Shown: piece by piece, positions 4,676-64,000 of the stretch | Layout of the letters: every line of letters starts with the position of its first letter | Position numbering within the stretch: position 1 is the stretch's first letter | NCBI GenBank assembly: GCA_964016885.1 | Contig: OZ024743.1 | Location: forward strand, 283,526,001 to 283,590,000 | Reading direction: 5' to 3' | Length of the DNA stretch: 64,000 nt | From: Eledone cirrhosa | Lineage: Eukaryota | Made by a program: the position numbers and the translations under genes | Notes under the pieces: generated by a model | The model's input: the letters and a program-made list of their open reading frames with translations, nothing else | Told to the model about the DNA's origin: nothing | Databases searched by the model: none

Positions 4676-4720
4676 AATAATAATAGTAATAATAACAATA
4701 GTAATAATGATTTCTTTATT
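4676..4720 (-). terminator. 3' end of copy B: AATAAA polyadenylation-type signal followed by degenerate (ATT)n tail
   Basis: Minus strand reads GGCCAATAAAGAAATCATTATTACTATTGTTATTATTACTATTATTATT after a T-rich 3' UTR. Confidence 0.7.
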
Positions 4721-7659: not shown

Positions 7660-7691
7660 GTTGGATGAGAAACGGGGCAAGTGAGAAAGGG

Positions 7692-9240: not shown

Positions 9241-9364
9241 TTTTAAATCTGTAACAATCCTCTTTTCCTTTGTAATATTCTGTAAAATTTACCTCAATAG
9301 ATATCGACAAGCAGCATTGTATTCTGGAGCAACAATGTAGACCAGGGCAACTCCGTAAAATAAT

Positions 9365-19574: not shown

Positions 19575-19890
19575 GACCCAACGTGGTCAATTGAACATCT
19601 AAAAAGAGCAGCTAAATTTCCCTCGAATCACACCCTTCTCTATTAAAAAGAATTGGCCACATTGTATAATGTAATTCAGGGTATACAAAAAAGATAGGAT
19701 GTTCATGGTTGAAATGTTGACCTGGGACTAAATAATAATGACAAGACAACAGATACAACAATAACAATTGTCACAAAATCAATACCTTCAATAATAACAA
19801 CTACAACAACAATAGCTATAATAGCCATAACTATAACAACACCAACAGTACCACAAGAACAACACCAACAGCAGCAACAATATTAAGAAC
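19575..19890 (+). repeat. Probable retroposon 3' remnant ending in an (AAT/AAC)n low-complexity tail that grades into the satellite
   Basis: ..GACCTGGGACTAAATAATAATGACAAGACAACAG.. followed by NNA-triplet sequence. Family resemblance is from recall only. Confidence 0.4.
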
Positions 19891-22800
19891 AATACTACCA
19901 ACAACATCAACAGTACCACCAACACCAACAACATCAACAGCACCGACAGCACCAACAACATCAACAGCACCACCATCATTGACAACATCAACAGCACCAC
20001 CAACACCAACAACGTCAACAGTACCACCAACACCAACAACCTCAACAGTACCACCAACACCAGCAACATCAACAGCACCACAAACACCAACAACGTCAAC
20101 AGTACCACCAACACCAACAACATCAACAGTACCACCAACACCAACAACGTCAACAGTACCACCAACACCAACAACCTCAACAGTACCACCAACACCAGCA
20201 ACATCAACAGTACCATCAACACCAACAACATCACAAGCACCACTAACACCAACAACATCAACAGCACCACCAACACCAACAACATCAACAGCACCACTAA
20301 CACCAACAACATCAACAGCACCACCAACACCAACAACATCAACAGTACCACCAACACCAACAACATCAACAGTACCACTAACACCAACAACATCAACAGC
20401 ACCACTAACACCAGCAACATCAACAGCACCACCAACACCAAAAACATCAACAGCACCACTAACACCAACAACATCAACAGTACCACCAACACCAACAACA
20501 TCAACAGTACCACTAACACCAACAACATCAACAGTACCACTAACACCAACAACATCAACAGTACCACCAACACAAACAACATCAACAGCACCACCAACAC
20601 CAACAACATCAACAGTACCACTAACACCAACAACATCAACAGTACCACTAACACCAACAACATCAACAGTACCACCAACACAAACAACATCAACAGTACC
20701 ACCAACACAAACAACATCAACAGCACCACAAACACCAACAACATCAACAGCACCACTAACACCAACAACATCAACAGTACCACCAACACCAACAACATCA
20801 ACAGTACCACTAACACCAACAACATCAACAGTACCACTAACACCAACAACATCAACAGTACCACCAACACAAACAACATCAACAGCACCACCAACACCAA
20901 CAACATCAACAGTACCACTAACACCAACAACATCAACAGTACCACTAACACCAACAACATCAACAGTACCACCAACACAAACAACATCAACAGTACCACC
21001 AACACAAACAACATCAACAGCACCACCAACACCAACAACATCAACAGTACCACTAACACCAACAACATCAACAGTACCACCAACACAAACAACATCAACA
21101 GCACCACCAACACCAACAACATCAACAGCACCACCAACACCAACAACATCAACAGCACCACCAACACCAACAACATCAACAGTACCACCAACACCAACAA
21201 CATCAACAGCACCACTAACACCAACAACATCAACAGCACCACCAACACCAACAACATCAACAGTACCACCAACACCAACAACATCAACAGTACCACCAAC
21301 ACCAACAACATCAACAGTACCACCAACACCAACAACATCAACAGCACCACTAACACCAACAACATCAACAGTACCACCAACACCAACAACATCAACAGTA
21401 CCACCAACACCAACAACATCAACAGTACCACCAACACCAACAACATCAACAGCACCACCAACACCAAGAACATCAACAGCACCACTAACACCAACAACAT
21501 CAACAGTACAACCAACACCAACAACATCATCAGCACCACCAACACCAACAACATCAACAGCACCACCAACACCAACAACGTCAACAGTACCACCAACACC
21601 GACAACATCAACAGCACCACTAACACCAACAACATCAACAGTACCACCAACACCAACAACATCAACAGCACCACCAACACCAACAACATCAACAGCACCA
21701 CCAACACCAACAACATCAACAGTACCATCAACACCAACAACATCAACAGCACCACCAACACCAACAACATCAACAGTACCACCAACACCAACAACATCAA
21801 CAGCACCACCAACACCAACAACATCAACAGCACCACCAACACCAACAACATCAACAGTACCATCAACACCAACAACATCAACAGCACCACCAACACCAAC
21901 AACATCAACAGTACCACCAACACCAACAACATCAACAGTACCACCAACACCAACAACATCAACAGTACCATCAACACCAACAACATCAACAGCACCACCA
22001 ACACCAACAACATCAACAGTACCACCAACACCAACAACATCAACAGTACCAACAACACCAACAACATCAACAGTACCATCAACACCAACAACATCAACAG
22101 TGCCACCAACACCAACAACATCAACAGTACCACCAACACCAACAACATCAACAGTACCACCAACATCAACAACATCAACAGTACCACCAACACCAACAAC
22201 ATCAACAGTACCACCAACACCAACAATATCAGCAGCAGTACCAACACCAACAACATCAACAGTACCACCAACACCAACAACATCAACAGTACCACCAACA
22301 CCAAAAACATCAACAGTACCACCAACACCAACAACATCAACAGTACCACCAACACCAACAACATCATCAGCACCACCAACACCAACAACATCAACAGCAC
22401 CACCAACACCAACAACATCAACAGCACCACTAACACCAACAACATCAACAGTACCAACAACACCAACAACATCAACAGCACCAACAACACCAACAACATC
22501 AACAGCACCACCAACACCAACAACATCAACAGTACCACCAACATCAACAACATCAACAGTACCACCAACACCAACAACATCAACAGTACCACCAACACCA
22601 ACAATATCAGCAGCAGTACCAACACCAACAACATCAACAGTACCACCAACACTAACAACATCAACAGTACCATCAACACCAACAACATCAACAGTACCAC
22701 CAACACCAACAACATCAACAGCACCACCAACACCAACAACATCAACAGTACCACCAACACCAACAACATCAACAGCACCACTAACACCAACAACATCAAC

Positions 22801-25800
22801 AGTACCACCAACACCAACAACATCAACAGCACCACCAACACCAACAACATCAACAGTACCACCAACACCAACAACATCAACAGCACCACTAACACCAACA
22901 ACATCAACAGCACCACCAACACCAACAACATCAACAGTACCACCAACACCAACAACATCAACAGTACCACCAACACCAACAACATCAACAGTACCACCAA
23001 CACTAACAACATCAACAGTACCATCAACACCAACAACATCAACAGTACCACCAACACCAACAACATCAACAGTACCACTAACACCAACAACATCAACAGT
23101 ACCACCAACACCAACAACATCAACAGCACCACCAACACCAACAACATCAACAGTACCACCAACACCAACAACATCAACAGCACCACTAACACCAACAACA
23201 TCAACAGTACCATCAACACCAACAACATCAACAGTACCACCAACACCAACAACATCAACAGTACCACTAACACCAACAACATCAACAGTACCACCAACAC
23301 CAACAACATCAACAGCACCACCAACACCAACAACATCAACAGCACCACTAACACCAACAACATCAACAGTACCACCAACACCAACAACATCAACAGTACC
23401 AACAACACCAACAACATCAACAGTACCACCAACACCAACAACATCAACAGTACCAACAACACCAACAACATCAACAGTACCGCCAACACCAACAACATCA
23501 ACAGTACCAACAACACCAACAACATCAACAGTACCAACAACACCAACAACATCAACAGCACCACCAACACCAACAACATCAACAGTAGCACCAACACCAA
23601 CAACATCAACAGTACCAACAACACCAACAACATCAACAGTACCACCAACACCAACAACATCAACAGCACCACCAACACCAACAACATCAACAGTAGCACC
23701 AACACCAACAACATCAACAGCACCACCAACACCAACAACATCAACAGTAGCACCAACACCAACAACATCAACAGTACCAACAACACCAACAACATCAACA
23801 GTACCATCAACACCAACAACATCAACAGTACCACCAACACCAACAACATCAACAGCACCACCAACACCAACAACATCAACAGTAGCACCAACACCAACAA
23901 CATCAACAGTACCGCCAACACCAACAACATCAACAGTACCAACAACATCAACAGCACAACCAACACCAACAACATCAACAGTACCAACAACACCAACAAC
24001 ATCAACAGCACCAGTACCACCAACACCAACAACATCAACATCAAGAGTACCACCATCAACACCAACATCAACAGCACCACCAACACCAACAACATCAACA
24101 GTACCACCAACACCAACAACACCAACAGCACCACCAACACCAACAACATCAACAGCACCACCAACACCAACAACATCAACAGCACCACCAACACCAACAA
24201 CATCAACAGTACCACCAACACCAACAACATCAACAGCACCACTAACACCAACAACATCAACAGCACCACCAACACCAACAACATCAACAGTACCACCAAC
24301 ACCAACAACATCAACAGTACCACCAACACCAACAACATCAACAGTACCACCAACACCAACAACATCAACAGCACCACTAACACCAACAACATCAACAGTA
24401 CCACCAACACCAACAACATCAACAGTACCACCAACACCAACAACATCAACAGTACCACCAACACCAACAACATCAACAGCACCACCAACACCAAGAACAT
24501 CAACAGCACCACTAACACCAACAACATCAACAGTACAACCAACACCAACAACATCATCAGCACCACCAACACCAACAACATCAACAGCACCACCAACACC
24601 AACAACGTCAACAGTACCACCAACACCAACAACATCAACAGCACCACTAACACCAACAACATCAACAGTACCACCAACACCAACAACATCAACAGCACCA
24701 CCAACACCAACAACATCAACAGCACCACCAACACCAACAACATCAACAGTACCATCAACACCAACAACATCAACAGCACCACCAACACCAACAACATCAA
24801 CAGTACCACCAACACCAACAACATCAACAGCACCACCAACACCAACAACATCAACAGCACCACCAACACCAACAACATCAACAGTACCATCAACACCAAC
24901 AACATCAACAGCACCACCAACACCAACAACATCAACAGTACCACCAACACCAACAACATCAACAGTACCACCAACACCAACAACATCAACAGTACCATCA
25001 ACACCAACAACATCAACAGCACCACCAACACCAACAACATCAACAGTACCACCAACACCAACAACATCAACAGTACCAACAACACCAACAACATCAACAG
25101 TACCATCAACACCAACAACATCAACAGTGCCACCAACACCAACAACATCAACAGTACCACCAACACCAACACCAACAACAGCACCACTAACACCAACAAC
25201 ATCAACAGTACCACCAACACCAACAACATCAACAGTACCACCAACACCAAAAACATCAACAGTACCACCAACACCAACAACATCAACAGTACCACCAACA
25301 CCAACAACATCATCAGCACCACCAACACCAACAACATCAACAGCACCACCAACACCAACAACATCAACAGCACCACTAACACCAACAACATCAACAGTAC
25401 CAACAACACCAACAACATCAACAGCACCAACAACACCAACAACATCAACAGCACCACCAACACCAACAACATCAACAGTACCACCAACATCAACAACATC
25501 AACAGTACCACCAACACCAACAACATCAACAGTACCACCAACACCAACAATATCAGCAGCAGTACCAACACCAACAACATCAACAGTACCACCAACACTA
25601 ACAACATCAACAGTACCATCAACACCAACAACATCAACAGTACCACCAACACCAACAACATCAACAGCACCACCAACACCAACAACATCAACAGTACCAC
25701 CAACACCAACAACATCAACAGCACCACTAACACCAACAACATCAACAGTACCACCAACACCAACAACATCAACAGCACCACCAACACCAACAACATCAAC

Positions 25801-28800
25801 AGTACCACCAACACCAACAACATCAACAGCACCACTAACACCAACAACATCAACAGCACCACCAACACCAACAACATCAACAGTACCACCAACACCAACA
25901 ACATCAACAGTACCACCAACACCAACAACATCAACAGTACCACCAACACTAACAACATCAACAGTACCATCAACACCAACAACATCAACAGTACCACCAA
26001 CACCAACAACATCAACAGTACCACTAACACCAACAACATCAACAGTACCACCAACACCAACAACATCAACAGCACCACCAACACCAACAACATCAACAGT
26101 ACCACCAACACCAACAACATCAACAGCACCACTAACACCAACAACATCAACAGTACCATCAACACCAACAACATCAACAGTACCACCAACACCAACAACA
26201 TCAACAGTACCACTAACACCAACAACATCAACAGTACCACCAACACCAACAACATCAACAGCACCACCAACACCAACAACATCAACAGCACCACTAACAC
26301 CAACAACATCAACAGTACCACCAACACCAACAACATCAACAGTACCAACAACACCAACAACATCAACAGTACCACCAACACCAACAACATCAACAGTACC
26401 AACAACACCAACAACATCAACAGTACCGCCAACACCAACAACATCAACAGTACCAACAACACCAACAACATCAACAGTACCAACAACACCAACAACATCA
26501 ACAGCACCACCAACACCAACAACATCAACAGTAGCACCAACACCAACAACATCAACAGTACCAACAACACCAACAACATCAACAGTACCACCAACACCAA
26601 CAACATCAACAGCACCACCAACACCAACAACATCAACAGTAGCACCAACACCAACAACATCAACAGCACCACCAACACCAACAACATCAACAGTAGCACC
26701 AACACCAACAACATCAACAGTACCAACAACACCAACAACATCAACAGTACCATCAACACCAACAACATCAACAGTACCACCAACACCAACAACATCAACA
26801 GCACCACCAACACCAACAACATCAACAGTAGCACCAACACCAACAACATCAACAGTACCGCCAACACCAACAACATCAACAGTACCAACAACATCAACAG
26901 CACAACCAACACCAACAACATCAACAGTACCAACAACACCAACAACATCAACAGCACCAGTACCACCAACACCAACAACATCAACATCAAGAGTACCACC
27001 ATCAACACCAACATCAACAGCACCACCAACACCAACAACATCAACAGTACCACCAACGACATCAGCATCAACAGTACCACCAACACCGACAACATCAACA
27101 GTACCATCAACACCAACAACATCAACAGTACCACCAACACCAACAACATCAACAGTACCACCAACACCAACAACATCAACAGTACCATCAACACCAACAA
27201 CATCAACAGTACCAACAACACCAACAACATCAACAGCACCAGTACCACCAACACCAACAACATCAACATCAACAGTACCACCAACACCAACAACATCAAC
27301 AGTACCATCAACACCAACAACATCAACAGTACCACCAACACCAACAACATCAACAGTACCATCAACACCAACAACATCAACAGTACCAACAACACCAACA
27401 ACATCAACAGGACCATCAACACCAACAACATCAACAGCACCAACAACATCAACAGTACCACCAACACCAACAACATCAACAGTACCATCAACACCAACAA
27501 CATCAACAGTACCATCAACACCAACAACATCAACAGTACCACCAACACCAACAACATCAACAGTACCATCAACACCAACAACATCAACAGTACCAACAAC
27601 ACCAACAACATCAACAGTACCATCAACACCAACAACATCAACAGCACCACCAACACCAACAACATCAACAGAACCAACAACACCAACAACATCAACAGGA
27701 CCATCAACACCAACAACATCAACAGTACCAACAACACCAACAACATCAACAGCACCACCAACACCAACAACATCAACAGGACCAACAACACCAACAACAT
27801 CAACAGCACCACCAACACCAACAACATCAACAGTACCATCAACACCAACAACATCAACAGTACCACCAACACCAACAACATCAACAGTACCACCAACACC
27901 AACAACATCAACAGTACCACCAACACCAACAACATCAACAGTACCATCAACACCAACAACATCAACAGTACCACCAACACCAACAACATCAACAGTACCA
28001 CCAACACCAACAACATCAACAGCACCACCAACACCAACAACATCAACAGAACCAACAACACCAACAACATCAACAGGACCATCAACACCAACAACATCAA
28101 CAGTACCACCAACACCAACAACATCAACAGTACCACCAACACTAACAACATCAACAGAACCAACAACACTAACAACATCAACAACACCACCAACACCAAC
28201 AACATCAACAGCACCAACAACACCAACAACATCAACAGCACCACCAACACCAACAACATCAACAGTACCACCAATATCAACAACATCAACAGTACCACGA
28301 ACACCAACAACATCAACAGTACCACCAACACCAACAACATCAACAGTACCACCAACACCAACAACATCAGCAGCAGTACCAACACCAACAACATCAACAG
28401 TACCACCAACACCAACAACATCAACAGTACCATCAACACCAACAACATCAACAGTACCACCAACACCAACAACATCAACAGCACCACCAACACCAACAAC
28501 ATCAACAGTACCACCAACACCAACAACATCAACAGCACCACCAACACCAACAACATCAACAGTACCACCAACACCAACAACATCAACAGCACCACTAACA
28601 CCAACAACAGCAACAGTACCACCAACACCAACAACATCAACAGTACCACCAACACCAACAACATCAACAGCACCACCAACACCAACAACATCAACAGTAC
28701 CACCAACACCAACAACATCAACAGCACCACTAACACCAACAACATCAACAGTACCACCAACACCAACAACATCAACAGCACCACCAACACCAACAACATC

Positions 28801-31800
28801 AACAGCACCACCAACACCAACAACATCAACAGTACCACCAACACCAACAACATCAACAACACCACCAACACCAACAACATCAACAGTACCACCAACACCA
28901 ACAACATCAACAGTACCAACAACACCAACAACATCAACAGTACCGCCAACACCAACAACATCAACAGTACCAACAACACCAACAACATCAACAGTACCAA
29001 CAACACCAACAACATCAACAGCACCACCAACACCAACAACATCAACAGTAGCACCAACACCAACAACATCAACAGTACCAACAACACCAACAACATCAAC
29101 AGTACCACCAACACCAACAACATCAACAGCACCACCAACACCAACAACATCAACAGTAGCACCAACACCAACAACATCAACAGCACCACCAACACCAACA
29201 ACATCAACAGTAGCACCAACACCAACAACATCAACAGCACCACCAACACCAACAACATCAACAGCACCACCAACACCAACAACATCAACAGCACCACCAA
29301 CACCAACAACATCAACAGTACCATCAACACCAACAACATCAACAGTACCACCAACACCAACAACATCAACAGTACCACCAACACCAACAACATCAACAGT
29401 ACCACCAACACCAACAACATCAACAGTACCATCAACACCAACAACATCAACAGTACCACCAACACCAACAACATCAACAGTACCACCAACACCAACAACA
29501 TCAACAGCACCACCAACACCAACAACATCAACAGAACCAACAACACCAACAACATCAACAGGACCATCAACACCAACAACATCAACAGTACCACCAACAC
29601 CAACAACATCAACAGTACCACCAACACTAACAACATCAACAGAACCAACAACACCAACAACATCAACAGCACCACCAACACCAACAACATCAACAGCACC
29701 AACAACACCAACAACATCAACAGCACCACCAACACCAACAACATCAACAGTACCACCAACATCAACAACATCAACAGTACCACGAACACCAACAACATCA
29801 ACAGTACCACCAACACCAACAACATCAACAGTACCACCAACACCAACAACATCAGCAGCAGTACCAACACCAACAACATCAACAGTACCACCAACACCAA
29901 CAACATCAACAGTACCATCAACACCAACAACATCAACAGTACCACCAACACCAACAACATCAACAGCACCACCAACACCAACAACATCAACAGTACCACC
30001 AACACCAACAACATCAACAGCACCACCAACACCAACAACATCAACAGTACCACCAACACCAACAACAGCAACAGTACCACCAACACCAACAACATCAACA
30101 GCACCACCAACACCAACAACATCAACAACACCACCAACACCAACAACATCAACAGTACCACCAACACCAACAACATCAACAGTACCAACAACACCAACAA
30201 CATCAACAGTACCGCCAACACCAACAACATCAACAGTACCAACAACACCAACAACATCAACAGTACCATCAACACCAACAACATCAACAGTACCACCAAC
30301 ACCAACAACATCAACAGCACCACCAACACCAACAACATCAACAGTACCACCAACACCAACAACATCAACAGCACCACTAACACCAACAACATCAACAGTA
30401 CCACCAACACCAACAACATCAACAGCACCACCAACACCAACAACATCAACAGCACCACCAACACCAACAACATCAACAGTACCACCAACACCAACAACAT
30501 CAACAACACCACCAACACCAACAACATCAACAGTACCACCAACACCAACAACATCAACAGTACCAACAACACCAACAACATCAACAGTACCGCCAACACC
30601 AACAACATCAACAGTACCAACAACACCAACAACATCAACAGTACCAACAACACCAACAACATCAACAGCACCACCAACACCAACAACATCAACAGTAGCA
30701 CCAACACCAACAACATCAACAGTACCAACAACACCAACAACATCAACAGTACCACCAACACCAACAACATCAACAGCACCACCAACACCAACAACATCAA
30801 CAGTAGCACCAACACCAACAACATCAACAGCACCACCAACACCAACAACATCAACAGTACCACCAACACCAACAACATCATCAGCACCACCAACACCAAC
30901 AACATCAACAGCACCACCAACACCAACAACATCAACAGCACCACTAACACCAACAACATCAACAGTACCAACAACACCAACAACATCAACAGCACCAACA
31001 ACACCAACAACATCAACAGCACCACCAACACCAACAACATCAACAGTACCACCAACATCAACAACATCAACAGTACCATCAACACCAACAACATCAACAG
31101 TACCATCAACACCAACAACATCAACAGTGCCACCAACACCAACAACATCAACAGTACCACCAACACCAACACCAACAACAGCACCACTAACACCAACAAC
31201 ATCAACAGTACCACCAACACCAACAACATCAACAGTACCACCAACACCAAAAACATCAACAGTACCACCAACACCAACAACATCAACAGTACCACCAACA
31301 CCAACAACATCATCAGCACCACCAACACCAACAACATCAACAGCACCACCAACACCAACAACATCAACAGCACCACTAACACCAACAACATCAACAGTAC
31401 CAACAACACCAACAACATCAACAGCACCAACAACACCAACAACATCAACAGCACCACCAACACCAACAACATCAACAGTACCACCAACATCAACAACATC
31501 AACAGTACCACCAACACCAACAACATCAACAGTACCACCAACACCAACAATATCAGCAGCAGTACCAACACCAACAACATCAACAGTACCACCAACACTA
31601 ACAACATCAACAGTACCATCAACACCAACAACATCAACAGTACCACCAACACCAACAACATCAACAGCACCACCAACACCAACAACATCAACAGTACCAC
31701 CAACACCAACAACATCAACAGCACCACTAACACCAACAACATCAACAGTACCACCAACACCAACAACATCAACAGCACCACCAACACCAACAACATCAAC

Positions 31801-34800
31801 AGTACCACCAACACCAACAACATCAACAGCACCACTAACACCAACAACATCAACAGCACCACCAACACCAACAACATCAACAGTACCACCAACACCAACA
31901 ACATCAACAGTACCACCAACACCAACAACATCAACAGTACCACCAACACTAACAACATCAACAGTACCATCAACACCAACAACATCAACAGTACCACCAA
32001 CACCAACAACATCAACAGTACCACTAACACCAACAACATCAACAGTACCACCAACACCAACAACATCAACAGCACCACCAACACCAACAACATCAACAGT
32101 ACCACCAACACCAACAACATCAACAGCACCACTAACACCAACAACATCAACAGTACCATCAACACCAACAACATCAACAGTACCACCAACACCAACAACA
32201 TCAACAGTACCACTAACACCAACAACATCAACAGTACCACCAACACCAACAACATCAACAGCACCACCAACACCAACAACATCAACAGCACCACTAACAC
32301 CAACAACATCAACAGTACCACCAACACCAACAACATCAACAGTACCAACAACACCAACAACATCAACAGTACCACCAACACCAACAACATCAACAGTACC
32401 AACAACACCAACAACATCAACAGTACCGCCAACACCAACAACATCAACAGTACCAACAACACCAACAACATCAACAGTACCAACAACACCAACAACATCA
32501 ACAGCACCACCAACACCAACAACATCAACAGTAGCACCAACACCAACAACATCAACAGTACCAACAACACCAACAACATCAACAGTACCACCAACACCAA
32601 CAACATCAACAGCACCACCAACACCAACAACATCAACAGTAGCACCAACACCAACAACATCAACAGCACCACCAACACCAACAACATCAACAGTAGCACC
32701 AACACCAACAACATCAACAGTACCAACAACACCAACAACATCAACAGTACCATCAACACCAACAACATCAACAGTACCACCAACACCAACAACATCAACA
32801 GCACCACCAACACCAACAACATCAACAGTAGCACCAACACCAACAACATCAACAGTACCGCCAACACCAACAACATCAACAGTACCAACAACATCAACAG
32901 CACAACCAACACCAACAACATCAACAGTACCAACAACACCAACAACATCAACAGCACCAGTACCACCAACACCAACAACATCAACATCAAGAGTACCACC
33001 ATCAACACCAACATCAACAGCACCACCAACACCAACAACATCAACAGTACCACCAACGACATCAGCATCAACAGTACCACCAACACCGACAACATCAACA
33101 GTACCATCAACACCAACAACATCAACAGTACCACCAACACCAACAACATCAACAGTACCACCAACACCAACAACATCAACAGTACCATCAACACCAACAA
33201 CATCAACAGTACCAACAACACCAACAACATCAACAGCACCAGTACCACCAACACCAACAACATCAACATCAACAGTACCACCAACACCAACAACATCAAC
33301 AGTACCATCAACACCAACAACATCAACAGTACCACCAACACCAACAACATCAACAGTACCATCAACACCAACAACATCAACAGTACCAACAACACCAACA
33401 ACATCAACAGGACCATCAACACCAACAACATCAACAGCACCAACAACATCAACAGTACCACCAACACCAACAACATCAACAGTACCATCAACACCAACAA
33501 CATCAACAGTACCATCAACACCAACAACATCAACAGTACCACCAACACCAACAACATCAACAGTACCATCAACACCAACAACATCAACAGTACCAACAAC
33601 ACCAACAACATCAACAGTACCATCAACACCAACAACATCAACAGCACCACCAACACCAACAACATCAACAGAACCAACAACACCAACAACATCAACAGGA
33701 CCATCAACACCAACAACATCAACAGTACCAACAACACCAACAACATCAACAGCACCACCAACACCAACAACATCAACAGGACCAACAACACCAACAACAT
33801 CAACAGCACCACCAACACCAACAACATCAACAGTACCATCAACACCAACAACATCAACAGTACCACCAACACCAACAACATCAACAGTACCACCAACACC
33901 AACAACATCAACAGTACCACCAACACCAACAACATCAACAGTACCATCAACACCAACAACATCAACAGTACCACCAACACCAACAACATCAACAGTACCA
34001 CCAACACCAACAACATCAACAGCACCACCAACACCAACAACATCAACAGAACCAACAACACCAACAACATCAACAGGACCATCAACACCAACAACATCAA
34101 CAGTACCACCAACACCAACAACATCAACAGTACCACCAACACTAACAACATCAACAGAACCAACAACACTAACAACATCAACAACACCACCAACACCAAC
34201 AACATCAACAGCACCAACAACACCAACAACATCAACAGCACCACCAACACCAACAACATCAACAGTACCACCAATATCAACAACATCAACAGTACCACGA
34301 ACACCAACAACATCAACAGTACCACCAACACCAACAACATCAACAGTACCACCAACACCAACAACATCAGCAGCAGTACCAACACCAACAACATCAACAG
34401 TACCACCAACACCAACAACATCAACAGTACCATCAACACCAACAACATCAACAGTACCACCAACACCAACAACATCAACAGCACCACCAACACCAACAAC
34501 ATCAACAGTACCACCAACACCAACAACATCAACAGCACCACCAACACCAACAACATCAACAGTACCACCAACACCAACAACATCAACAGCACCACTAACA
34601 CCAACAACAGCAACAGTACCACCAACACCAACAACATCAACAGTACCACCAACACCAACAACATCAACAGCACCACCAACACCAACAACATCAACAGTAC
34701 CACCAACACCAACAACATCAACAGCACCACTAACACCAACAACATCAACAGTACCACCAACACCAACAACATCAACAGCACCACCAACACCAACAACATC

Positions 34801-37800
34801 AACAGCACCACCAACACCAACAACATCAACAGTACCACCAACACCAACAACATCAACAACACCACCAACACCAACAACATCAACAGTACCACCAACACCA
34901 ACAACATCAACAGTACCAACAACACCAACAACATCAACAGTACCGCCAACACCAACAACATCAACAGTACCAACAACACCAACAACATCAACAGTACCAA
35001 CAACACCAACAACATCAACAGCACCACCAACACCAACAACATCAACAGTAGCACCAACACCAACAACATCAACAGTACCAACAACACCAACAACATCAAC
35101 AGTACCACCAACACCAACAACATCAACAGCACCACCAACACCAACAACATCAACAGTAGCACCAACACCAACAACATCAACAGCACCACCAACACCAACA
35201 ACATCAACAGTAGCACCAACACCAACAACATCAACAGCACCACCAACACCAACAACATCAACAGCACCACCAACACCAACAACATCAACAGCACCACCAA
35301 CACCAACAACATCAACAGTACCATCAACACCAACAACATCAACAGTACCACCAACACCAACAACATCAACAGTACCACCAACACCAACAACATCAACAGT
35401 ACCACCAACACCAACAACATCAACAGTACCATCAACACCAACAACATCAACAGTACCACCAACACCAACAACATCAACAGTACCACCAACACCAACAACA
35501 TCAACAGCACCACCAACACCAACAACATCAACAGAACCAACAACACCAACAACATCAACAGGACCATCAACACCAACAACATCAACAGTACCACCAACAC
35601 CAACAACATCAACAGTACCACCAACACTAACAACATCAACAGAACCAACAACACCAACAACATCAACAGCACCACCAACACCAACAACATCAACAGCACC
35701 AACAACACCAACAACATCAACAGCACCACCAACACCAACAACATCAACAGTACCACCAACATCAACAACATCAACAGTACCACGAACACCAACAACATCA
35801 ACAGTACCACCAACACCAACAACATCAACAGTACCACCAACACCAACAACATCAGCAGCAGTACCAACACCAACAACATCAACAGTACCACCAACACCAA
35901 CAACATCAACAGTACCATCAACACCAACAACATCAACAGTACCACCAACACCAACAACATCAACAGCACCACCAACACCAACAACATCAACAGTACCACC
36001 AACACCAACAACATCAACAGCACCACCAACACCAACAACATCAACAGTACCACCAACACCAACAACAGCAACAGTACCACCAACACCAACAACATCAACA
36101 GCACCACCAACACCAACAACATCAACAACACCACCAACACCAACAACATCAACAGTACCACCAACACCAACAACATCAACAGTACCAACAACACCAACAA
36201 CATCAACAGTACCGCCAACACCAACAACATCAACAGTACCAACAACACCAACAACATCAACAGTACCATCAACACCAACAACATCAACAGTACCACCAAC
36301 ACCAACAACATCAACAGCACCACCAACACCAACAACATCAACAGTACCACCAACACCAACAACATCAACAGCACCACTAACACCAACAACATCAACAGTA
36401 CCACCAACACCAACAACATCAACAGCACCACCAACACCAACAACATCAACAGCACCACCAACACCAACAACATCAACAGTACCACCAACACCAACAACAT
36501 CAACAACACCACCAACACCAACAACATCAACAGTACCACCAACACCAACAACATCAACAGTACCAACAACACCAACAACATCAACAGTACCGCCAACACC
36601 AACAACATCAACAGTACCAACAACACCAACAACATCAACAGTACCAACAACACCAACAACATCAACAGCACCACCAACACCAACAACATCAACAGTAGCA
36701 CCAACACCAACAACATCAACAGTACCAACAACACCAACAACATCAACAGTACCACCAACACCAACAACATCAACAGCACCACCAACACCAACAACATCAA
36801 CAGTAGCACCAACACCAACAACATCAACAGCACCACCAACACCAACAACATCAACAGTAGCACCAACACCAACAACATCAACAGCACCACCAACACCAAC
36901 AACATCAACAGCACCACCAACACCAACAACATCAACAGCACCACCAACACCAACAACATCAACAGTACCATCAACACCAACAACATCAACAGTACCACCA
37001 ACACCAACAACATCAACAGTACCACCAACACCAACAACATCAACAGTACCACCAACACCAACAACATCAACAGTACCATCAACACCAACAACATCAACAG
37101 TACCACCAACACCAACAACATCAACAGTACCACCAACACCAACAACATCAACAGCACCACCAACACCAACAACATCAACAGAACCAACAACACCAACAAC
37201 ATCAACAGGACCATCAACACCAACAACATCAACAGTACCACCAACACCAACAACATCAACAGTACCACCAACACTAACAACATCAACAGAACCAACAACA
37301 CCAACAACATCAACAGCACCACCAACACCAACAACATCAACAGCACCAACAACACCAACAACATCAACAGCACCACCAACACCAACAACATCAACAGTAC
37401 CACCAACATCAACAACATCAACAGTACCACGAACACCAACAACATCAACAGTACCACCAACACCAACAACATCAACAGTACCACCAACACCAACAACATC
37501 AGCAGCAGTACCAACACCAACAACATCAACAGTACCACCAACACCAACAACATCAACAGTACCATCAACACCAACAACATCAACAGTACCACCAACACCA
37601 ACAACATCAACAGCACCACCAACACCAACAACATCAACAGTACCACCAACACCAACAACATCAACAGCACCACCAACACCAACAACATCAACAGTACCAC
37701 CAACACCAACAACAGCAACAGTACCACCAACACCAACAACATCAGCAGCACCACCAACACCAACAACATCAACAACACCACCAACACCAACAACATCAAC

Positions 37801-40800
37801 AGTACCACCAACACCAACAACATCAACAGTACCAACAACACCAACAACATCAACAGTACCGCCAACACCAACAACATCAACAGTACCAACAACACCAACA
37901 ACATCAACAGTACCATCAACACCAACAACATCAACAGTACCACCAACACCAACAACATCAACAGCACCACCAACACCAACAACATCAACAGTACCACCAA
38001 CACCAACAACAGCAACAGTACCACCAACACCAACAACATCAACAGCACCACCAACACCAACAACATCAACAACACCACCAACACCAACAACATCAACAGT
38101 ACCACCAACACCAACAACATCAACAGTACCAACAACACCAACAACATCAACAGTACCGCCAACACCAACAACATCAACAGTACCAACAACACCAACAACA
38201 TCAACAGTACCATCAACACCAACAACATCAACAGTACCACCAACACCAACAACATCAACAGCACCAACAACACCAACAACATCAACAGCACCAACAACAC
38301 CAACAACATCAACAGCACCACCAACACCAACAACATCAACAGTAGCACCAACACCAACAACATCAACAGTACCAACAACACCAACAACATCAACAGTACC
38401 ACCAACACCAACAACATCAACAGCACCACCAACACCAACAACATCAACAGTAGCACCAACACCAACAACATCAACAGCACCACCAACACCAACAACATCA
38501 ACAGTAGCACCAACACCAACAACATCAACAGTACCGCCAACACCAACAACATCAACAGTACCAACAACACCAACAACATCAACAGTACCATCAACACCAA
38601 CAACATCAACAGTACCACCAACACCAACAACATCAACAGCACCACCAACACCAACAACATCAACAGTAGCACCAACACCAACAACATCAACAGTACCACC
38701 AACACCAACAACATCAACAGTACCACCAACACCAACAACATCAACAGTACCGCCAACACCAACAACATCAACAGTACCAACAACATCAACAGCACAACCA
38801 ACACCAACAACATCAACAGTACCATCAACACCAACAACATCAACAGTACCAACAACACCAACAACATCAACAGCACCAGTACCACCAACACCAACAACAT
38901 CAACATCAACAGTACCACCAACACCAACAACATCAACAGTACCATCAACACCAACAACATCAACAGTACCACCAACACCAACAACATCAACAGTACCACC
39001 AACACCAACAACATCAACAGTACCATCAACACCAACAACATCAACAGTACCAACAACACCAACAACATCAACAGCACAACCAACACCAACAACATCAACA
39101 GTACCATCAACACCAACAACATCAACAGTACCACCAACACCAACAACATCAACAGTACCATCAACACCAACAACATCAACAGTACCAACAACACCAACAA
39201 CATCAACAGTACCATCAACACCAACAACATCAACAGTACCAACAACACCAACAACATCAACAGTACCATCAACACCAACAACATCAACAGCACCACCAAC
39301 ACCAACAACATCAACAGAACCAACAACACCAACAACATCAACAACACCACCAACACCAACAACATCAACAGTACCATCAACACCAACAACATCAACAGTA
39401 CCACCAACACCAACAACATCAACAGTACCACCAACACCAACAACATCAACAGTACCACCAACACCAACAACATCAACAGTACCATCAACACCAACAACAT
39501 CAACAGTACCACCAACACCAACAACATCAACAGTACCACCAACACCAACAACATCAACAGCACCACCAACACCAACAACATCAACAGAACCAACAACACC
39601 AACAACATCAACAGGACCATCAACACCAACAACATCAACAGCACCACCAACACCAACAACATCAACAGTACCACCAACACCAACAACATCAACAGCACCA
39701 CCAACACCAACAACATCAACAGCACCACCAACACCAACAACATCAACAGTACCACCAACACCAACAACATCAACAGCACCACCAACACCAACAACATCAA
39801 CAGCACCACCAACACCAACAACATCAACAGCACCACCAACACCAACAACATCAACAGTACCATCAACACCAACAACATCACCACTAACACCAACAACATC
39901 AACAGTACCACCAACACCAACAACATCAACAGTACCACCAACACCAACAACATCAACAGTACCACCAACACCAACAACATCAACAGTACCACCAACACCA
40001 ACAACATCAACAGCACCACCAACACCAACAACATCAACAGCACCACCAACACCAACAACATCAACAGCACCACCAACACCAACAACATCAACAGTACCAC
40101 CAACACCAACAACATCAACAGCACCACCAACACCAACAACATCAACAGCACCACCAACACCAACAACATCAACAGCACCACCAACACCAACAACATCAAC
40201 AGTACCATCAACACCAACAACATCAACAGGACCATCAACACCAACAACATCAACAGTACCACCAACACCAACAACATCAACAGCACCACCAACACCAACA
40301 ACATCAACAGAACCAACAACACCAACAACATCAACAGGACCATCAACACCAACAACATCAACAGTACCACCAACACCAACAACAGCACCACTAACACCAA
40401 CAACATCAACAGTACCACCAACACCAACAACATCAACAGTACCACCAACACCAACAACATCAACAGAACCAACAACACCAACAACATCAACAGCACCACC
40501 AACACCAACAACATCAACAGTACCACCAACACCAACAACATCAACAGGACCATCAACACCAACAACATCAACAGTACCACCAACACCAACAACATCAACA
40601 GTACCACCAACACCAACAACATCAACAGCACCACCAACACCAACAACATCAACAGCACCACCAACACCAACAACATCAACAGTACCACTAACACCAACAA
40701 CATCAACAGTACCATCAACACCAACAACATCAACAGCACCACCAAAACCAACAACATCAACAGTACTAACAACACCAACAACATCAACAGCACCACCAAC

Positions 40801-43800: not shown

Positions 43801-45143
43801 ACCAACAACATCAACAGTACCATCAACACCAACAACATCAACAGTACCACCAACACCAACAACATCAACAGTACCACCAACACCAACAACATCAACAGCA
43901 CCACCAACACCAACAACATCAACAGCACCACCAACACCAACAACATCAACAGTACCATCAACACCAACAACATCTACAGTACTACCAACACCAACAACAT
44001 CAACAGCACCACCAACACCAACAACATCAACAGCACCACCAACACCAACAACATCAATAGCACCAACAACACCAACAACATCAACAGCACCACCAACACC
44101 AACAACATCAACAGCACCACCAACACCAACAACATCAACAGCACCACCAACACCAACAACATCAACAGTACCACCAACACCAACAACATCAACAGCACCA
44201 CCAACACCAACAACATCAACAGCACCACCAACACCAACAACATCAACAGTACCATCAACACCAACAACATCAACAGTACTACCAACACCAACAACATCAA
44301 CAGCACCACCAACACCAACAACATCAACAGCACCACCAACACCAACAACATCAATAGCACCAACAACACCAACAACATCAACAGCACCACCAACACCAAC
44401 AACATCAACAGTACCACCAACACCAACAACATCAACAGCACCACCAACACCAACAACATCAACAGCACCACCAACACCAACAACATCAACAGTACCACCA
44501 ACACCAACAACATCAACAGTACCACCAACAAAAACAACATCAACAGTACCACCAACACCAACAACATCAACAGCACCACCAACACCAACAACATCAACAG
44601 TACCACCAACACCAACAACATCAACAGTACCACCAACAAAAACAACATCAACAGTACCATCAACACCAACAACATCAACAGCACCACCAACACCAACAAC
44701 ATCAACAGCACCACCAACACCAACAACATCAACAGTACCACCAACACCAACAACATCAACAGTACCACCAACACCAACAACATCAACAGCACCACCAACA
44801 CCAACAACATCAACAGTACCATCAACACCAACAACATCAACCGTACCACCAACACCAACAACATCAACAGTACTATCAACACCAACAACATCAACAGCAC
44901 CAGCAACAACATCAACAGCAACAGCACCACCAACACCAACAACATCAACAGCACCACCAACACCAACAACGTCAACAGTACCACCAACACCAACAACATC
45001 AACAGCACCACCAACACCAACAACATCAACAGTACCACCAACACCAACAACATCAACAGTACCACCAACACCAACAACATCAACAGCACCACCAACACCA
45101 ACAGCATCAATAGCACCAACAACACCAACAACATCAACAGTAC
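19890..45143 (+). repeat. 27-bp satellite, left arm (C/A-rich on +), ~930 units with higher-order duplications
   Basis: Unit ACATCAACAG[T/C]ACCACCAACACCAACA (24/27 A+C, nine NNA triplets). All length variants are multiples of 3. Confidence 0.97.
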
Positions 45144-57300: not shown

Positions 57301-60300
57301 TGTTGGTGTTTGTGGTGCTGTTGATGTTGTTGGTGTTGGTGGTACTGTTGATGTTGTTGGTGTTGGTGGTACTGTTGATGTTGTTGGCGTTAGTGGTACT
57401 GTTGATGTTGTTGGTGTTGGTGGTACTGTTGATGTTGTTGGTGTTGGTGGTGCTGTTGTTGGTGTTGGTGTTGGTGGTACTGCTGATGTTGTTGGTGTTG
57501 GTGGTACTGTTGATGTTGTTGGTGTTGGTGGTGCTGTTGATTTTGTTGGTGTTGATGGTACTGTTGATGTTGTTGGTTTTGGTGGTGCTGTTGTTGGTGT
57601 TGGTGTTGGTGGTACTGTTGATGTTGTTGGTGTTGGTGGTGCTGTTGATGTTGTTGGTGTTGGTGGTGCTGTTGATGTTGTTGGTTTTGGTGGTACTGTT
57701 GATGTTGTTTGTGTTGGTGGTGCTGTTGATGTTGTTGGTGTTGGTGGTGCTGTTGATGTTGTTGGTGTTGGTGGTGCTGTTGATGTTGTTGGTGTTGGTG
57801 GTACTGTTGATGTTGTTTGTGTTGGTGGTGCTGTTGATGTTGTTGGTTTTGGTGGTGCTGTTGTTGGTGTTGGTGTTGGTGGTGCTGTTGATGTTGTTGG
57901 TGTTGGTGGTACTGTTGATGTTGTTGGTGTTAGTGGTGCTGTTGTTGGTGTTGGTGTTGGTGGTGCTGTTGATGTTGTTGGTGTTGGTGGTACTGTTGAT
58001 GTTGTTGGTGTTAGTGGTGCTGTTGTTGGTGTTGGTGTTGGTTGTGCTGTTGATGTTGTTGGTGTTGGTGGTGATGTTGATGTTGTTGGTGTTGGTGGTA
58101 CTGTTGATGTTGTTGGTGTTGGTGGTGCTGTTGATGTTGTTGGTGTTGGTGGTACTGTTGATGTTGTTGGTGTTGGTGGTACTGTTGATGTTGTTGGTGT
58201 TGGTGGTACTGTTGATGTTGTTGGTGTTGGTGGTGCTGTTGATGTTGTTGGTGTTGGTGGTGCTGTTGATGTTGTTGGTGTTGGTGGTACTGTTGATGTT
58301 GTTGGTGTTGGTGGTGCTGTTGTTGGTGTTGGTGTTGGTGGTACTGTTGATGTTGTTGGTGTTGGTGGTACTGTTGATGTTGTTGGTGTTGGTGGTACTG
58401 TTGATGTTGTTGGTGTTGGTGGTGCTGTTGATGTTGTTGGTGTTGGTGGTACTGTTGATGTTGTTGGTGTTGGTGTTGCTGTTGTTGGTGTTGGTGTTGG
58501 TGTTGGTGGTACTGTTGATGTTGTTGGTGTTTTTGGTACTGTTGATGTTGTTGGTGTTGGTGGTACTGTTGATGTTGTTGGTGTTGGTGGTACTGTTGAT
58601 GTTGTTGGTGTTGGTGGTGCTGTTGATGTTGTTGGTGTTGGTGGTACTGTATATGTTGTTGGTGTTGGTGGTACTGTTGATGTTGTTGGTGTTGGTGGTG
58701 CTGTTGATGTTGTTGGTGTTGGTGGTGCTGTTGTTGGTGTTGGTGTTGGTGGTACTGTTGATGTTGTTGGTGTTGGTGGTACTGTTGATGTTGATGGTGT
58801 TGGTGGTACTGTTGATGTTGTTGGTGTTGGTGGTGCTGTTGTTGGTGTTGGTGTTGGTGGTACTGTTGATGTTGTTGGTGTTGGTGGTACTGTTGATGTT
58901 GTTGGTGTTGGTCGTACTGTTGATGTTGTAGGTGTTGGTGGTGCTGTTGATGTTGTTGGTGCTGTTGATGTTTTTGGTGTTGGTGGTACTGTTGATGTTG
59001 TTGGTGTTGGTGGTATTGTTCATGTTGTTGGTGTTGGTGGTACTGTTGATGTTGTTGGTGTTGGTGGTACTGTTCATGTTGTTGGTGTTGGTGGTACTGT
59101 TCATGTTGTTGGTGTTGGTGGTACTGTTGATGTTGTTGGTGTTGGTGGTGCTGTTGCTGTTGTTGGTGTTAGTGGTGCTGTTGATGTTGTTGGTGTTGGT
59201 GGTACTGTTGATGTTGTTGGTGTTTGTGGTACTGTTGATGTTGTTGGTGTTGGTGGTACTGTTGATGTTGTTGTTGGTGGTGCTGTTGATGTTGTTGGTG
59301 TTGGTGGTACTGTTGATGTTGTTGGTGTTGGTGGTACTGTTGTTGGTGTTGGTGTTGGTGGTACTGTTGATGTTGTTGGTGTTGGTGGTGCTGTGTATGT
59401 TGTTGGTGTTGGTGGTGCTGTTGATGTTGTTGCTGTTGGTGCTGCTGTTGGTGTTGTTGGTGTTCGTGGTACTGTTGATGTTGTTGTTGGTGTTGGTGGT
59501 GCTGTTGAAGTTGTTGGTGTTGGTGGTGCTGTTGATGTTGTTGGTGTTGGTGGTGCTGTTGTTGGTGTTGGTGTTGATGGTACTGTTGATGTTGTTGGTG
59601 TTGGTGGTGCTGTTGTTGGTGTTGGTGTTGGTGGTACTGTTGATGTTGTTGGTGTTGGTGGTACTGTTGATGTTGTTGGTGTTGGTGGTGCTGTTGTTGT
59701 TGTTGGTGTTGGTGGTACTGTTGTTGGTGTTGGTGTTGGTGGTACTGTTGATGTTGTTGGTGTTGGTGGTGCTGTTGATGTTGTTGGTGTTGATGGTACT
59801 GTTGATGTTGTTGGTGTTGGTGGTGCTGTTGTTGGTGTTGGTGTTGGTGGTACTGTTGATGTTGTTGGTGTTGGTGGTACTGTTGATGTTGTTGGTGTTG
59901 GTGGTGCTGTTGTTGTTGTTGGTGTTGGTGGTACTGTTGATGTTGTTGGTGTTGGTGGTACTGTTGTTAGTGTTGGTTTTGGTGGTACTGTTGATGCTGT
60001 TGGTGTTGGTGGTGCTGTTGGTGTTGTTGGTGTTCGTGGTACTGTTGATGTTGTTGGTGTTGTTGGTACTGTTGTTAGTGTTGGTTTTGGTGGTACTGTT
60101 GATGTTGTTGGTGTTGGTGGTGCTGTTGGTGTTGTTGGTGTTCGTGGTACTGTTGATGTTGTTGGTGTTAGTGGTGCTGTTGATGTTGTTGGTGTTGGTG
60201 GTGCTGTTGATGTTGTTGGTGCTGTTGATGTTGTTGGTGTTGGTGGTGCTGTTGATGTTGTTGGTGTTGGTGGTACTGTTGATGTTGTTGGTGTTGGTGG

Positions 60301-63300
60301 TACTGTTGATGTTGTTGGTGTTGGTGGTACTGTTGATGTTGTTGGTGTTGGTGGTACTGTTGATGTTGTTGGTGTTGGTGGTACTGTTGATGTTGATGTT
60401 GTTGGTGTTGGTGTACTGTTGATGTTGTTGGTGCTGTTGATGTTGTTGGTGTTGGTGGTACTGTTGATGTTGTTGGTGTTGGTGATGCTGTTGATGTTGT
60501 TGGTGTTGGTGGGACTGTTGATGTTGTTGGTGTTGGTGGTGCTGTTGATGTTGTTGGTGTTGGTGGTGCTGTTGATGTTGTTGGTGTTGGTGGTACTGTT
60601 GATGTAGTTGGTGTTGGTGGTGCTGTTGATGTTGTTGGTGTTGGTGGTACTGTTGATGTTGTTGGTGTTGGTGGTGCTGTTGATGTTGTTGGTGTTGGTG
60701 GTGCTGTTTATGTTGCTGGTGTTGGTGGTGCTGTTGATGTTGTTGGTGTTGGTGGTGCTGTTGATGTTGTTGGTGTTGGTGGTACTGTTGATGTTGTTGG
60801 TGTTGGTGGTGCTGTTGATGTTGTTGGTGTTGGTGGTACTGTTGATGTTGTTGGTGTTGGTGGTACTGTTGATGTAGTTGGTGTTGGTGGTGCTGTTGAT
60901 GTTGTTGGTGTTGGTGGTACTGTTGATGTTGTTGGTGTTGGTGGTGCTGTTGATGTTGTTGGTGTTGGTGGTGCTGTTTATGTTGCTGGTGTTGGTGGTG
61001 CTGTTGATGTTGTTGGTGTTGGTGGTGCTGTTGATGTTGTTGGTGTTGGTGGTACTGTTGATGTTGTTGGTGTTGGTGGTGCTGTTGATGTTGTTGGTGT
61101 TGGTGGTACTGTTGATGTTGTTGGTGGTACTGTTGATGTTGTTGGTGGTACTGTTGATGTTGTTGGTGTTGGTGGTACTGTTGATGTTGTTGGTGTTGGT
61201 GGTACTGTTGATGTTGTTGGTGTTGGTGGTACTGTTGATGTTGTTGGTGTTAGTGGTGCTGTGTATGTTGTTGGTGTTGGTGGTACTGTTGATGTTGTTG
61301 GTGTTGGTGGTGCTGTTGATGTTGTTGGTGTTGGTGGTACTGTTGGTGTTGTTGGTGTTAGTGGTGCTGTTGTTGGTGTTGGTGTTGGTTGTGCTGTTGA
61401 TGTTGTTGGTGTTGGTGGTGATGTTGATGTTGTTGGTGTTGGTGGTACTGTTGATGTTGTTGGTGTTGGTGGTGCTGTTGATGTTGTTGGTGTTGGTTGT
61501 GCTGTTGATGTTGTTGGTGTTGGTGGTGATGTTGATGTTGTTGGTGTTGGTGGTACTGTTGATGTTGTTGGTGTTGGTGGTACTGTTGATGTTGTTGGTG
61601 TTGGTGGTGCTGTTGATGTTGTTGGTGTTAGTGGTACTGTTGATGTTGTTGGTGTTGGTGGTACTGTTGATGTTGTTGGTGTTGGTGGTACTGTTGATGT
61701 TGTTGGTGTTGGTGTACTGTTGATGTTGTTGGTGCTGTTGATGTTTTGGTGTTGGTGGTACTGTTGATGTTGTTGGTGTTGGTGGTGCTGTTGATGTTGT
61801 TGGTGTTGGTGGTGCTGTTGATGTTGTTGGTGTTGGTGGTACTGTTGATGTTGTTGGTGTTGGTGGTGCTGTTGTTGGTGTTGGTGTTGGTGGTACTGTT
61901 GATGTTGTTGGTGTTGGTGGTACTGTTGATGTTGTTGGTGTTGGTGGTACTGTTGTTGGTGTTGGTGTTGGTGGTACTGTTGATGTTGTTGGTGTTGGTG
62001 GTACTGTTGATGTTGTTGGTGTTGGTGGTGCTGTTGATGTTGTTGGTGTTGATGGTACTGTTGATGTTGTTGGTGTTGGTGGTACTGTTGATGTTGTTGG
62101 TGTTGGTGGTGCTGTTGATGTTGTTGGTGTTAGTGGTGCTGTTGATATTGTTGGTGTTGGTGGTACTGTTGATGTTGTTGGTGTTGGTGGTGCTGTTGAT
62201 GTTGTTGGTGTTGGTGGTACTGTTGATGTTGTTGGTGTTGGTGGTACTGCTACTGTTGTTGGTGTTAGTGGTACTGTTGCTGTTGTTGGTGTTAGTGGTG
62301 CTGTTGATGTTGTTGGTGTTAGTGGTACTGTTGATGTTGTTGGTGTTGGTGGTGCTGTTGATGTTGTTGGTGTTGGTGGTACTGTTGATGTTGTTGGTGT
62401 TGGTGGTACTGTTGATATTGTTGGTGTTAGTGGTACTGTTGATGTTGTTGGTGTTGGTGGTGCTGTTGATGTTGTTGGTGTTAGTGGTACTGTTGATGTT
62501 GTTGGTGTTAGTGGTGCTGTTGATGTTGTTGGTGTTGTTGGTGCTGTTGATGTTGTTGGTGTTAGTGGTGCTGTTGATATTGTTGGTGTTGGTGGTACTG
62601 TTGATGTTGTTGGTGTTGGTGGTGCTGTTGATGTTGTTGGTGTTGGTGGTGCTGTTGATGTTGTTGGTGTTGGTGGTGCTGTTGATGTTGTTGGTGTTGT
62701 TGGTGCTGTTGATGTTGTTGGTGTTAGTGGTGCTGTTGATATTGTTGGTGTTAGTGGTACTGTTGGTGTTGTTGGTGTTGGTGGTGCTATTGATGTTGTT
62801 GGTGTTGTTGGTGCTGTTGATGTTGTTGGTGTTGGTGGTGCTGTTGATGTTGTTGGTGTTGGTGGTGCTGTTGATGTTGTTGGTGTTGGTGGTGCTGTTG
62901 ATGTTGTTGGTGTTGGTGGTACTGTTGATATTGTTGGTGTTGTTGGTGCTGTTGATGTTGTTGGTGTTAGTGGTGCTGTTGATATTGTTGGTGTTGGTGG
63001 TACTGTTGATGTTGTTGGTGTTTGTGGTACTGTTGATGTTGTTGGTGTTGGTGGTACTGTTGATGTTGTTGGTGTTGGTGGTGCTGTTGATGTTGTTGGT
63101 GTTAGTGGTGCTGTTGATGTTGTTGGTGTTGGTGGTACTGTTGATGTTGTTGGTGTTGGTGGTGCTGTTGATGTTGTTGGTGTTGGTGGTGCAGTTGATG
63201 TTGTTGGTGTTGGCGGTACTGTTGATGTTGTTGGTGTTGGTGGTACTGTTGATGTTGTTGGTGTTGTTGGTGCTGTTGATGTTGCTGGTGTTGGTGGTGC

Positions 63301-64000
63301 TGTTGATGTTGTTGGTGTTGGTGGTATTGTTGATGTTGTTGGTTTTGGTGGTGCTGTTGATGTTGTTGGTGTTAGTGGTGCTGTTGGTGTTGTTGGTGTT
63401 GGTGGTGCTGTTGATGTTGTTGGTGTTGGTGGTACTGTTGATGTTGTTGGTGTTGGTGGTGATGTTGATGTTGTTGGTGTTGGTGGTGCTGTTGATGTTG
63501 TTGGTGTTGGTGGTACTGTTGTTGTTGTTGGTGTTGGTGTTGGTGATACTGTTGATGTTGTTGGTGTTGGTGGTGCTGTTGATGTTGTTGGTGTTAGTGG
63601 TGCTGTTGATGTTGTTGGTGTTGGTGGTGCTGTTGATGTTGTTGGTGTTAGTGGTGCTGTTGATGTTGTTGGTGTTGGTGGTACTGTTGATGTTGTTGGT
63701 GTTGGTGGTACTGTTGTTGTTGTTGGTGTTGGTGTTGGTGATACTGTTGATGTTGTTGGTGTTGGTGGTGCTGTTGATGTTGTTGGTGTTGGTGGTACTG
63801 TTGATGTTGTTGGTGTTGGTGGTACTGTTGATGTTGTTGGTGTTGGTGGTGCTGTTGATGTTGTTGGTGTTGGTGGTACTGTTGATGTTGTTGGTGTTGC
63901 TGGTACTGTTGATGTTGTTGGTGTTAGTGGTACTGTTGATGTTGTTGGTGTTGGTGATGCTGTTGATGTTGTTGGTGTTGGTGGTGCTGTTGATGTTGTT
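45144..64000 (-). repeat. 27-bp satellite, right arm in inverted orientation (G/T-rich on +), ~700 units, continues beyond the window
   Basis: Unit TGTTGGTGTTGGTGGT[A/G]CTGTTGATGT is the reverse complement of the left-arm unit. It has its own variants and one-base deletions. Confidence 0.97.

What the first reader, a model, noticed from the sequence alone, without database searches (positions are those of the whole stretch)
19890..64000. Giant spacer-less inverted satellite: ~25 kb C/A arm facing at least 19 kb G/T arm
Seen: the 27-bp array flips strand at ~45143 with no intervening unique sequence or gap. The arms are not mirror images: right-arm variants next to the junction (TGTAGGTGG, GATTTTG) are absent from the left arm, and left-arm near-junction variants (ACAAAAACA, TCAACCGTA) are not mirrored. 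A simple fold-back read artefact is therefore unlikely. Inference: any unit can pair with any opposite unit, so the locus could form hairpins in any register, and a read-through transcript would give very long dsRNA (ADAR or small-RNA substrate). Strand switches are also known inside centromeric satellite arrays.
Basis: partly seen in the sequence, partly recalled or inferred. Interest (0 to 1): 0.8.

Follow-up and report, generated by a model that had tools for sequence, protein, structure and literature searches.

The report
Minisatellite inverted at its only palindrome
A 65-kb run of one 27-base repeat, found at one place in this genome, has 40 kb facing backwards with both ends of the reversed piece on the same four-base palindrome, likely the mark of a single inversion, a known kind of event in repeat arrays.

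Summary
The G/T arm runs on to 39.8 kb and ends at a second junction, so the array is 65 kb. Both junctions sit on GTAC, the only word of 4 or more bases shared by the main units and their reverse complement. Flipping the piece between them gives one head-to-tail array with a decayed C/A-type exit. Two rare variants from the left arm's end recur 63 and 228 bp from the far junction. Best reading (0.7): one balanced inversion at a 4-base microhomology, followed by separate turnover of each arm. Against it: common-variant frequencies fit the present order better, and reads did not cover the junction I tested. The centre is a quasi-palindrome: 14 perfect bases, or a 14-nt loop with 94-95% matching arms. 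The unit occurs at one locus only (1083 of 1084 matches), so it is not a shared centromeric satellite. Transcription, editing and CENP-A binding are untested. Spacer-less strand switches are already described in Tribolium and human satellites.

The parts
19735..19896 (+). Decayed AAT/AAC-rich entry tract from which the array likely grew
   Evidence: Sequence; it aligns with the 22 bases after the far junction
19897..45139 (+). Left arm, 25.2 kb, 27-bp unit on the C/A strand; 920 parsed units, no frameshifting indel
45140..45143 (.). Junction J1: GTAC, centre of a 14-bp perfect palindrome (45135-45148); unique in the genome
45144..64000 (-). Right (inverted) arm, part inside the window; 1436 parsed units in all. 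It runs on past the window to junction J2, a second GTAC at G000:C4:283610921-283610924 (L013:921-924; 84921-84924 in window-extended numbering), which is followed by a decayed C/A-type exit tract
25080..36859 (+). Exact 5,780-bp duplication inside the left arm (offset 6,000)
58809..64000 (-). First copy of an exact 6,105-bp duplication inside the right arm (offset 7,284; runs past the window)

Best explanation
This is a single-locus 27-bp minisatellite in which a 39.8-kb piece faces backwards between two GTAC sites, likely the result of one balanced inversion. Shown: both junctions lie on GTAC, GTAC is the only word of 4 or more bases common to both strands of the main units, and flipping the piece restores unit phase and flank polarity. 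Inferred: two breaks (or two template switches), one inside the array and one at its last unit, were joined at this 4-base microhomology because the strand-skewed unit offers no other; a 4-base staggered cut at the inner break reads the same. Inferred: each arm then kept turning over by its own tandem duplications. The long quasi-palindrome is a by-product with no shown function and is predicted to be fragile at J1.
For: Both ends of the reversed piece are GTAC. GTAC is the only shared 4-mer of the main units; no 5-mer is shared. The left arm ends on the last base of GTAC and the right arm, read on its C/A strand, begins on the first; independent ends would match this phase about 1 time in 27 (my estimate, after the fact). 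The 22 bases after J2 score 18 against the C/A unit and 6 against the G/T unit; 2.5% of 19,979 random flank 22-mers score as high. A two-change variant lies 3 times in the last 1.1 kb of the left arm and 3 times in the right arm, 228, 4,818 and 7,005 bp from J2; the AGG variant has 19 left copies and 1 right copy, 63 bp from J2. The last 5 kb of the left arm shares 8.9% of 135-mers with the J2 end and 0.7% with its present neighbour (7.1% and 3.9% at 8 kb). Sharing across the restored join is low: only 3 of 30 within-arm boundaries are as low at 5 kb and 0 of 22 at 8 kb, which fits separate turnover after a real event. No N gap lies in 200 kb upstream, and the next gap is 44.5 kb beyond J2.
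Against: Common-variant frequencies favour the present order: the ATC variant is 14-22% at the left arm's end, 27% and 16% just across J1, and 0-1% at the J2 end. In a profile correlation with the left arm's end, the J2-end window ranks 12 of 29 and 6 of 14, the J1-end window 4 in both. A shared-run test showed no trend along the right arm (Spearman -0.11 to 0.15). Only 2 or 3 of 33 shared alleles carry the continuity signal, picked after looking, and 135-mer sharing partly reflects AGC/AGT content. The unit next to J2 is 36 bp and the right-arm unit next to J1 is 12 bp, so the joins are not textbook-clean. No read evidence for either junction was obtained.
Confidence: 0.7

Rival explanations
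1. Assembly artefact: the true array is head-to-tail and the assembler reversed a piece or joined chimeric reads.
For: A 65-kb array of 93% matching units is hard to assemble (established knowledge). The exact 5.8 and 6.1 kb duplications could be assembler expansions. No read confirmed a junction.
Against: It needs two independent errors at reciprocal positions, both on GTAC. A missed-adapter chimera would be a mirror image, and this is not. Neither junction is at a scaffold gap. Sharing across the restored join is lower than within arms.
Confidence: 0.13
2. Early fold-back or very early small inversion: the strand switch at J1 arose while the array was short, and both arms grew outward from it, with shared variants spreading near the centre.
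For: ATC is high on both sides of J1 and fades towards J2; ACT is low near J1 and higher at both outer ends. The profile correlation ranks the J1 end above the J2 end.
Against: A pure fold-back does not explain GTAC at J2, the C/A-type exit tract, or the AGG relic 63 bp from J2. Rare alleles do not cross J1 in either direction. The early-inversion form differs from the best reading only in timing.
Confidence: 0.11
3. The array is a giant mucin-type exon (unit PTPTTST[V/A]P) cut by the inversion; the left arm still codes and the reversed arm decays.
For: The Pro/Thr frame is open from 19742 to 45361, 8,540 codons. All 5 frameshifting unit types (14 copies) and both stop-making changes lie in the right arm and none in the left; chance 0.03-0.08 for 6-7 events (after the fact).
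Against: No pyrimidine-rich splice acceptor among the 12 AG sites at the entry, and no in-frame start. Synonymous changes in that frame are scarce, 7 of 41 against 27 of 81 possible (p 0.03). Only 2 of 81 single changes can make a stop there, so an open frame is expected. Pfam hits nearby are all transposon-type.
Confidence: 0.06

Closest known systems
Tribolium satellite macro-dyad symmetries (PMC13081366, PMC12581902; passages read)
   Same: Two opposite subarrays of one satellite, up to 75 kb; in T. freemani truncated monomers meet with no foreign sequence and give 9-27 bp loops, as here (14 nt).
   Different: There, thousands of conserved inversion sites lie in major (peri)centromeric satellites on many chromosomes. 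Here there is one junction in a single-locus repeat, and its reciprocal junction can be named.
Inversions inside human satellite arrays: 1.7-Mb inversion in the chr1 alpha-satellite HOR array; strand switches in HSat3 and beta satellite (10.1101/2021.07.12.452052, 10.64898/2026.07.22.740206; passages read)
   Same: A piece of a tandem array is reversed, giving strand switches within one repeat family.
   Different: Those are centromeric, larger, and the chr1 case is shown to be polymorphic. Here the array is 65 kb, one breakpoint is at the array's last unit, and polymorphism is unknown.
Long quasi-palindromes as fragile sites (PMC7999016; passages read)
   Same: Long, similar arms with a short loop; inverted Alu pairs with a 12-bp spacer stall forks in that review.
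   Different: Arms here are tandem repeats about 94% alike that can pair in many registers; breakage is not shown.
Microhomology-mediated inversion (MMEJ, FoSTeS/MMBIR) and staggered-break inversion (recalled, not read here)
   Same: A few shared bases at both junctions of a balanced inversion.
   Different: The microhomology is forced by the repeat unit itself; the three routes cannot be told apart from one sequence.

Membership tests
Balanced inversion within a tandem array | Two reciprocal strand-switch junctions | tested here: met
   J1 and J2, both on GTAC
Balanced inversion within a tandem array | Flipping restores unit phase and flank polarity | tested here: met
   one 36-bp and one 12-bp unit at the joins
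Balanced inversion within a tandem array | Variant pattern continuous across the restored join | tested here: inconclusive
   Rare variants and 135-mers for; common-allele profile against
Balanced inversion within a tandem array | Junctions present in reads; uninverted allele known | tested here: inconclusive
Fold-back read artefact or perfect palindrome | Arms are mirror images | tested here: not met
   Mirror identity 0.65-0.66; 14-bp perfect palindrome; longest shared match 274 bp
Tribolium-type macro-dyad | Opposite multi-kb subarrays with no foreign spacer | tested here: met
Tribolium-type macro-dyad | Conserved inversion site repeated at many loci | tested here: not met
   The J1 24-mer occurs once in the genome
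Centromeric satellite | Unit shared by many chromosomes in large arrays | tested here: not met
   491 of 491 35-mer and 1083 of 1084 21-mer matches lie in this locus
Centromeric satellite | CENP-A binding | not testable with these tools
   No chromatin data
Mucin PTS exon | Long open Pro/Thr/Ser-rich frame | tested here: met
   8,540 codons, but expected from the unit's make-up
Mucin PTS exon | Splice acceptor or start, and flanking exons | tested here: not met
   No acceptor-like site at the entry; no host domains in 300 of 788 frames; short exons not scanned
Long dsRNA or ADAR substrate | Transcript reading through J1 with A-to-G changes | not testable with these tools
   No RNA data could be laid on the junction

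The most novel reading that the evidence does not exclude
The inversion cut a giant mucin-type exon. The left arm still holds an 8,500-codon Pro/Thr/Ser frame while the reversed arm decays, and any transcript folds back on itself into a stem of up to 25 kb, so the gene makes its own silencing or hyper-editing substrate.
Probability: 0.05. Interest if true: 0.75.

Novelty: new member of a known kind. Interest (0 to 1): 0.3.

Why it matters
If real, it is an unusually clean case of how strand switches arise in satellite arrays. Both junctions can be named to the base, and both fall on the only palindromic word in the unit. That gives a testable rule: switches in strand-skewed repeats should fall on the unit's self-complementary words. 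It also splits one array into two arms that cannot exchange by ordinary unequal crossing-over, a natural test of how arrays homogenise. It does not point to a new kind of element or a function.

Tried and rejected
Reads at J2: contigs of X1-X3 (one sample, possibly the assembled one) and raw RAD reads of X16 were laid at 90% likeness, and related repeats swamped the result. At 97%, X1 covered only the array side and none of the unique flank, and X16-X18 laid 0 reads. The tool warns that a hole proves nothing, so the test is void. The run search listed no RNA holder. No second copy of the J2 flank, such as another haplotype, is in the assembly: 1 match. The left and right flanks share only dispersed repeats, so the locus is not a tail-to-tail gene duplication or a joined pair of haplotypes. 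Arm-to-arm conversion near J1 was considered for the ATC pattern, but rare alleles do not cross J1. A test for GTAC-centred switches in pure AAC tracts genome-wide found 0 matches, and 0 for a non-palindromic control, so it says nothing on generality. Earlier-finding look-ups returned nothing. Seven paper searches listed no description of this locus or of both breakpoints on a unit's palindrome; the library is incomplete and no supplements were opened.

Full report
Observation. The window holds a 27-bp tandem array on the C/A strand at 19897-45143 and the same unit on the G/T strand from 45144 to the end, with no gap or foreign sequence between. The arms are not mirror images: mirror identity is 0.65-0.66 near the centre, and the longest exact match between arms is 274 bp against 5,780 and 6,105 bp within arms. 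The perfect palindrome at the switch is 14 bp. With Watson-Crick pairs only, 300 nt around it fold with a 14-nt loop, and the arms align at 94.8% over 1 kb and 94.2% over 3 kb.

What lies beyond the window. The window is G000:C4:283526001-283590000 in a 3.0-Gb genome. I fetched 200 kb on each side. The G/T arm continues to position 84924 in window-extended numbering, so it is 39.8 kb and the array is 65 kb. There is no N gap in the 200 kb upstream, and the next one is 44.5 kb past the array. The two flanks share only dispersed repeats. The unit is confined to this place: 491 of 491 matches of a 35-mer and 1083 of 1084 matches of a 21-mer lie here.

The inversion. Both ends of the G/T arm are GTAC: J1 at 45140-45143 and J2 at 84921-84924. 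The left arm stops on the last base of GTAC, and the right arm read on its C/A strand starts on the first. Flipping the piece in a script gives one head-to-tail array, with a 36-bp unit at one join and a 12-bp unit at the other. The 22 bases after J2 look like a decayed C/A-strand unit (score 18 against 6 for the other strand; 2.5% of 19,979 random flank 22-mers score as high) and align with the decayed entry tract. GTAC is the only 4-mer shared by the four main unit types and their reverse complements, and no 5-mer is shared. I infer that any microhomology join that switches strand in this array is steered to GTAC.

Variant tests, for and against. For: a two-change variant has 3 copies in the last 1.1 kb of the left arm and 3 in the right arm, 228, 4,818 and 7,005 bp from J2. 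The AGG variant has 19 left copies and 1 right copy, 63 bp from J2. The last 5 kb of the left arm shares 8.9% of 135-mers with the J2 end and 0.7% with its present neighbour; at 8 kb the figures are 7.1% and 3.9%. Against: the common ATC variant is high on both sides of J1 and near zero at J2. The allele-profile correlation ranks the J2 end 12 of 29 and 6 of 14, the J1 end 4 in both. A shared-run test showed no trend. The rare variants are 2 or 3 of 33 shared alleles and were picked after looking. Sharing across the restored join is at the low end of within-arm boundaries, 3 of 30 as low at 5 kb and 0 of 22 at 8 kb. I read this as separate turnover of the arms after a real and not very recent event, with relics kept in the end units. 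That reading is inferred.

Mechanism. Most likely (0.7) is one balanced inversion, from two breaks or two template switches joined at the 4-base microhomology. A staggered cut at the inner break gives the same letters and cannot be told apart. The names of these routes are recalled. Rivals are misassembly (0.13), a switch that arose when the array was short (0.11), and a cut mucin-type exon (0.06).

Reads. Contigs of X1-X3 and RAD reads of X16-X18 were laid on J2 in two calls. Neither gave a usable cover of the unique flank, so they neither confirm nor refute the junction.

Coding and context. The left arm has an open Pro/Thr frame of 8,540 codons and an open Asn/Thr frame. All 5 frameshifting unit types and both stop-making changes are in the right arm (chance 0.03-0.08). 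But only 2 of 81 single changes can stop that frame, synonymous changes are scarce (7 of 41 against 27 of 81 possible, p 0.03), and no acceptor-like site is at the entry. Of 788 flanking open frames of 75 aa or more, I scanned the 300 longest; the Pfam hits were reverse transcriptase, endonuclease, PHD, zf-RVT, Pif1/AAA and DDE domains only. Short host exons, and so an intronic position, are not excluded.

Comparison with what is known. I read passages, not whole texts, of six papers and opened no supplements. Tribolium satellites form macro-dyad symmetries up to 75 kb, with spacer-less switches and 9-27 bp loops, checked on raw reads (PMC13081366; PMC12581902). Human arrays carry a polymorphic 1.7-Mb inversion and hundreds of strand switches (10.1101/2021.07.12.452052; 10.64898/2026.07.22.740206). 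Long arms with short spacers raise breakage risk (PMC7999016). An octopus repeat paper added only background (PMC13282606). This locus looks like a macro-dyad but fails the test of a repeated, conserved switch site and is not a shared centromeric satellite. Seven searches listed no account of this locus.

Verdict. A real-looking, well-resolved example of a known kind of event. Its added value is the pair of reciprocal junctions on the unit's only palindrome. No function is shown. Interest 0.3.

Noticed in passing
window 1-9300, minus strand: Two tandem broken LINE copies with endonuclease and reverse-transcriptase pieces.
   Followed up: partly
L048:4370-7870 (+), L018:6331-8997 (+), L015:4163-6271 (-): Long LINE frames (1167, 889, 703 aa) with a PHD finger just after the reverse-transcriptase domain; this layout recurs in many copies in the flanks.
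   Followed up: no
L025:2977-4190 (-): Pif1 helicase pieces in three adjacent frames, probably a Helitron remnant (label inferred).
   Followed up: no
window 25080-36859 and 58809 to extended 72197: Exact duplications of 5,780 and 6,105 bp inside the arms; recent expansions or assembler copies.
   Followed up: partly
right arm, window 47647-61763 and beyond: All one-base deletions and Pro/Thr-frame stops fall in the inverted arm, which also has more distinct units (109 against 58); unexplained.
   Followed up: partly
G000:C2:10231729-10253000, C3:11598143-11622074, C21:833179-836154, C14:12029228-12030072: Other AAC-rich arrays matched the entry tract, each on one strand among the hits listed.
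   Followed up: no
G000:C4:251277386-251277406: The only match of the unit's 21-mer outside this locus.
   Followed up: no
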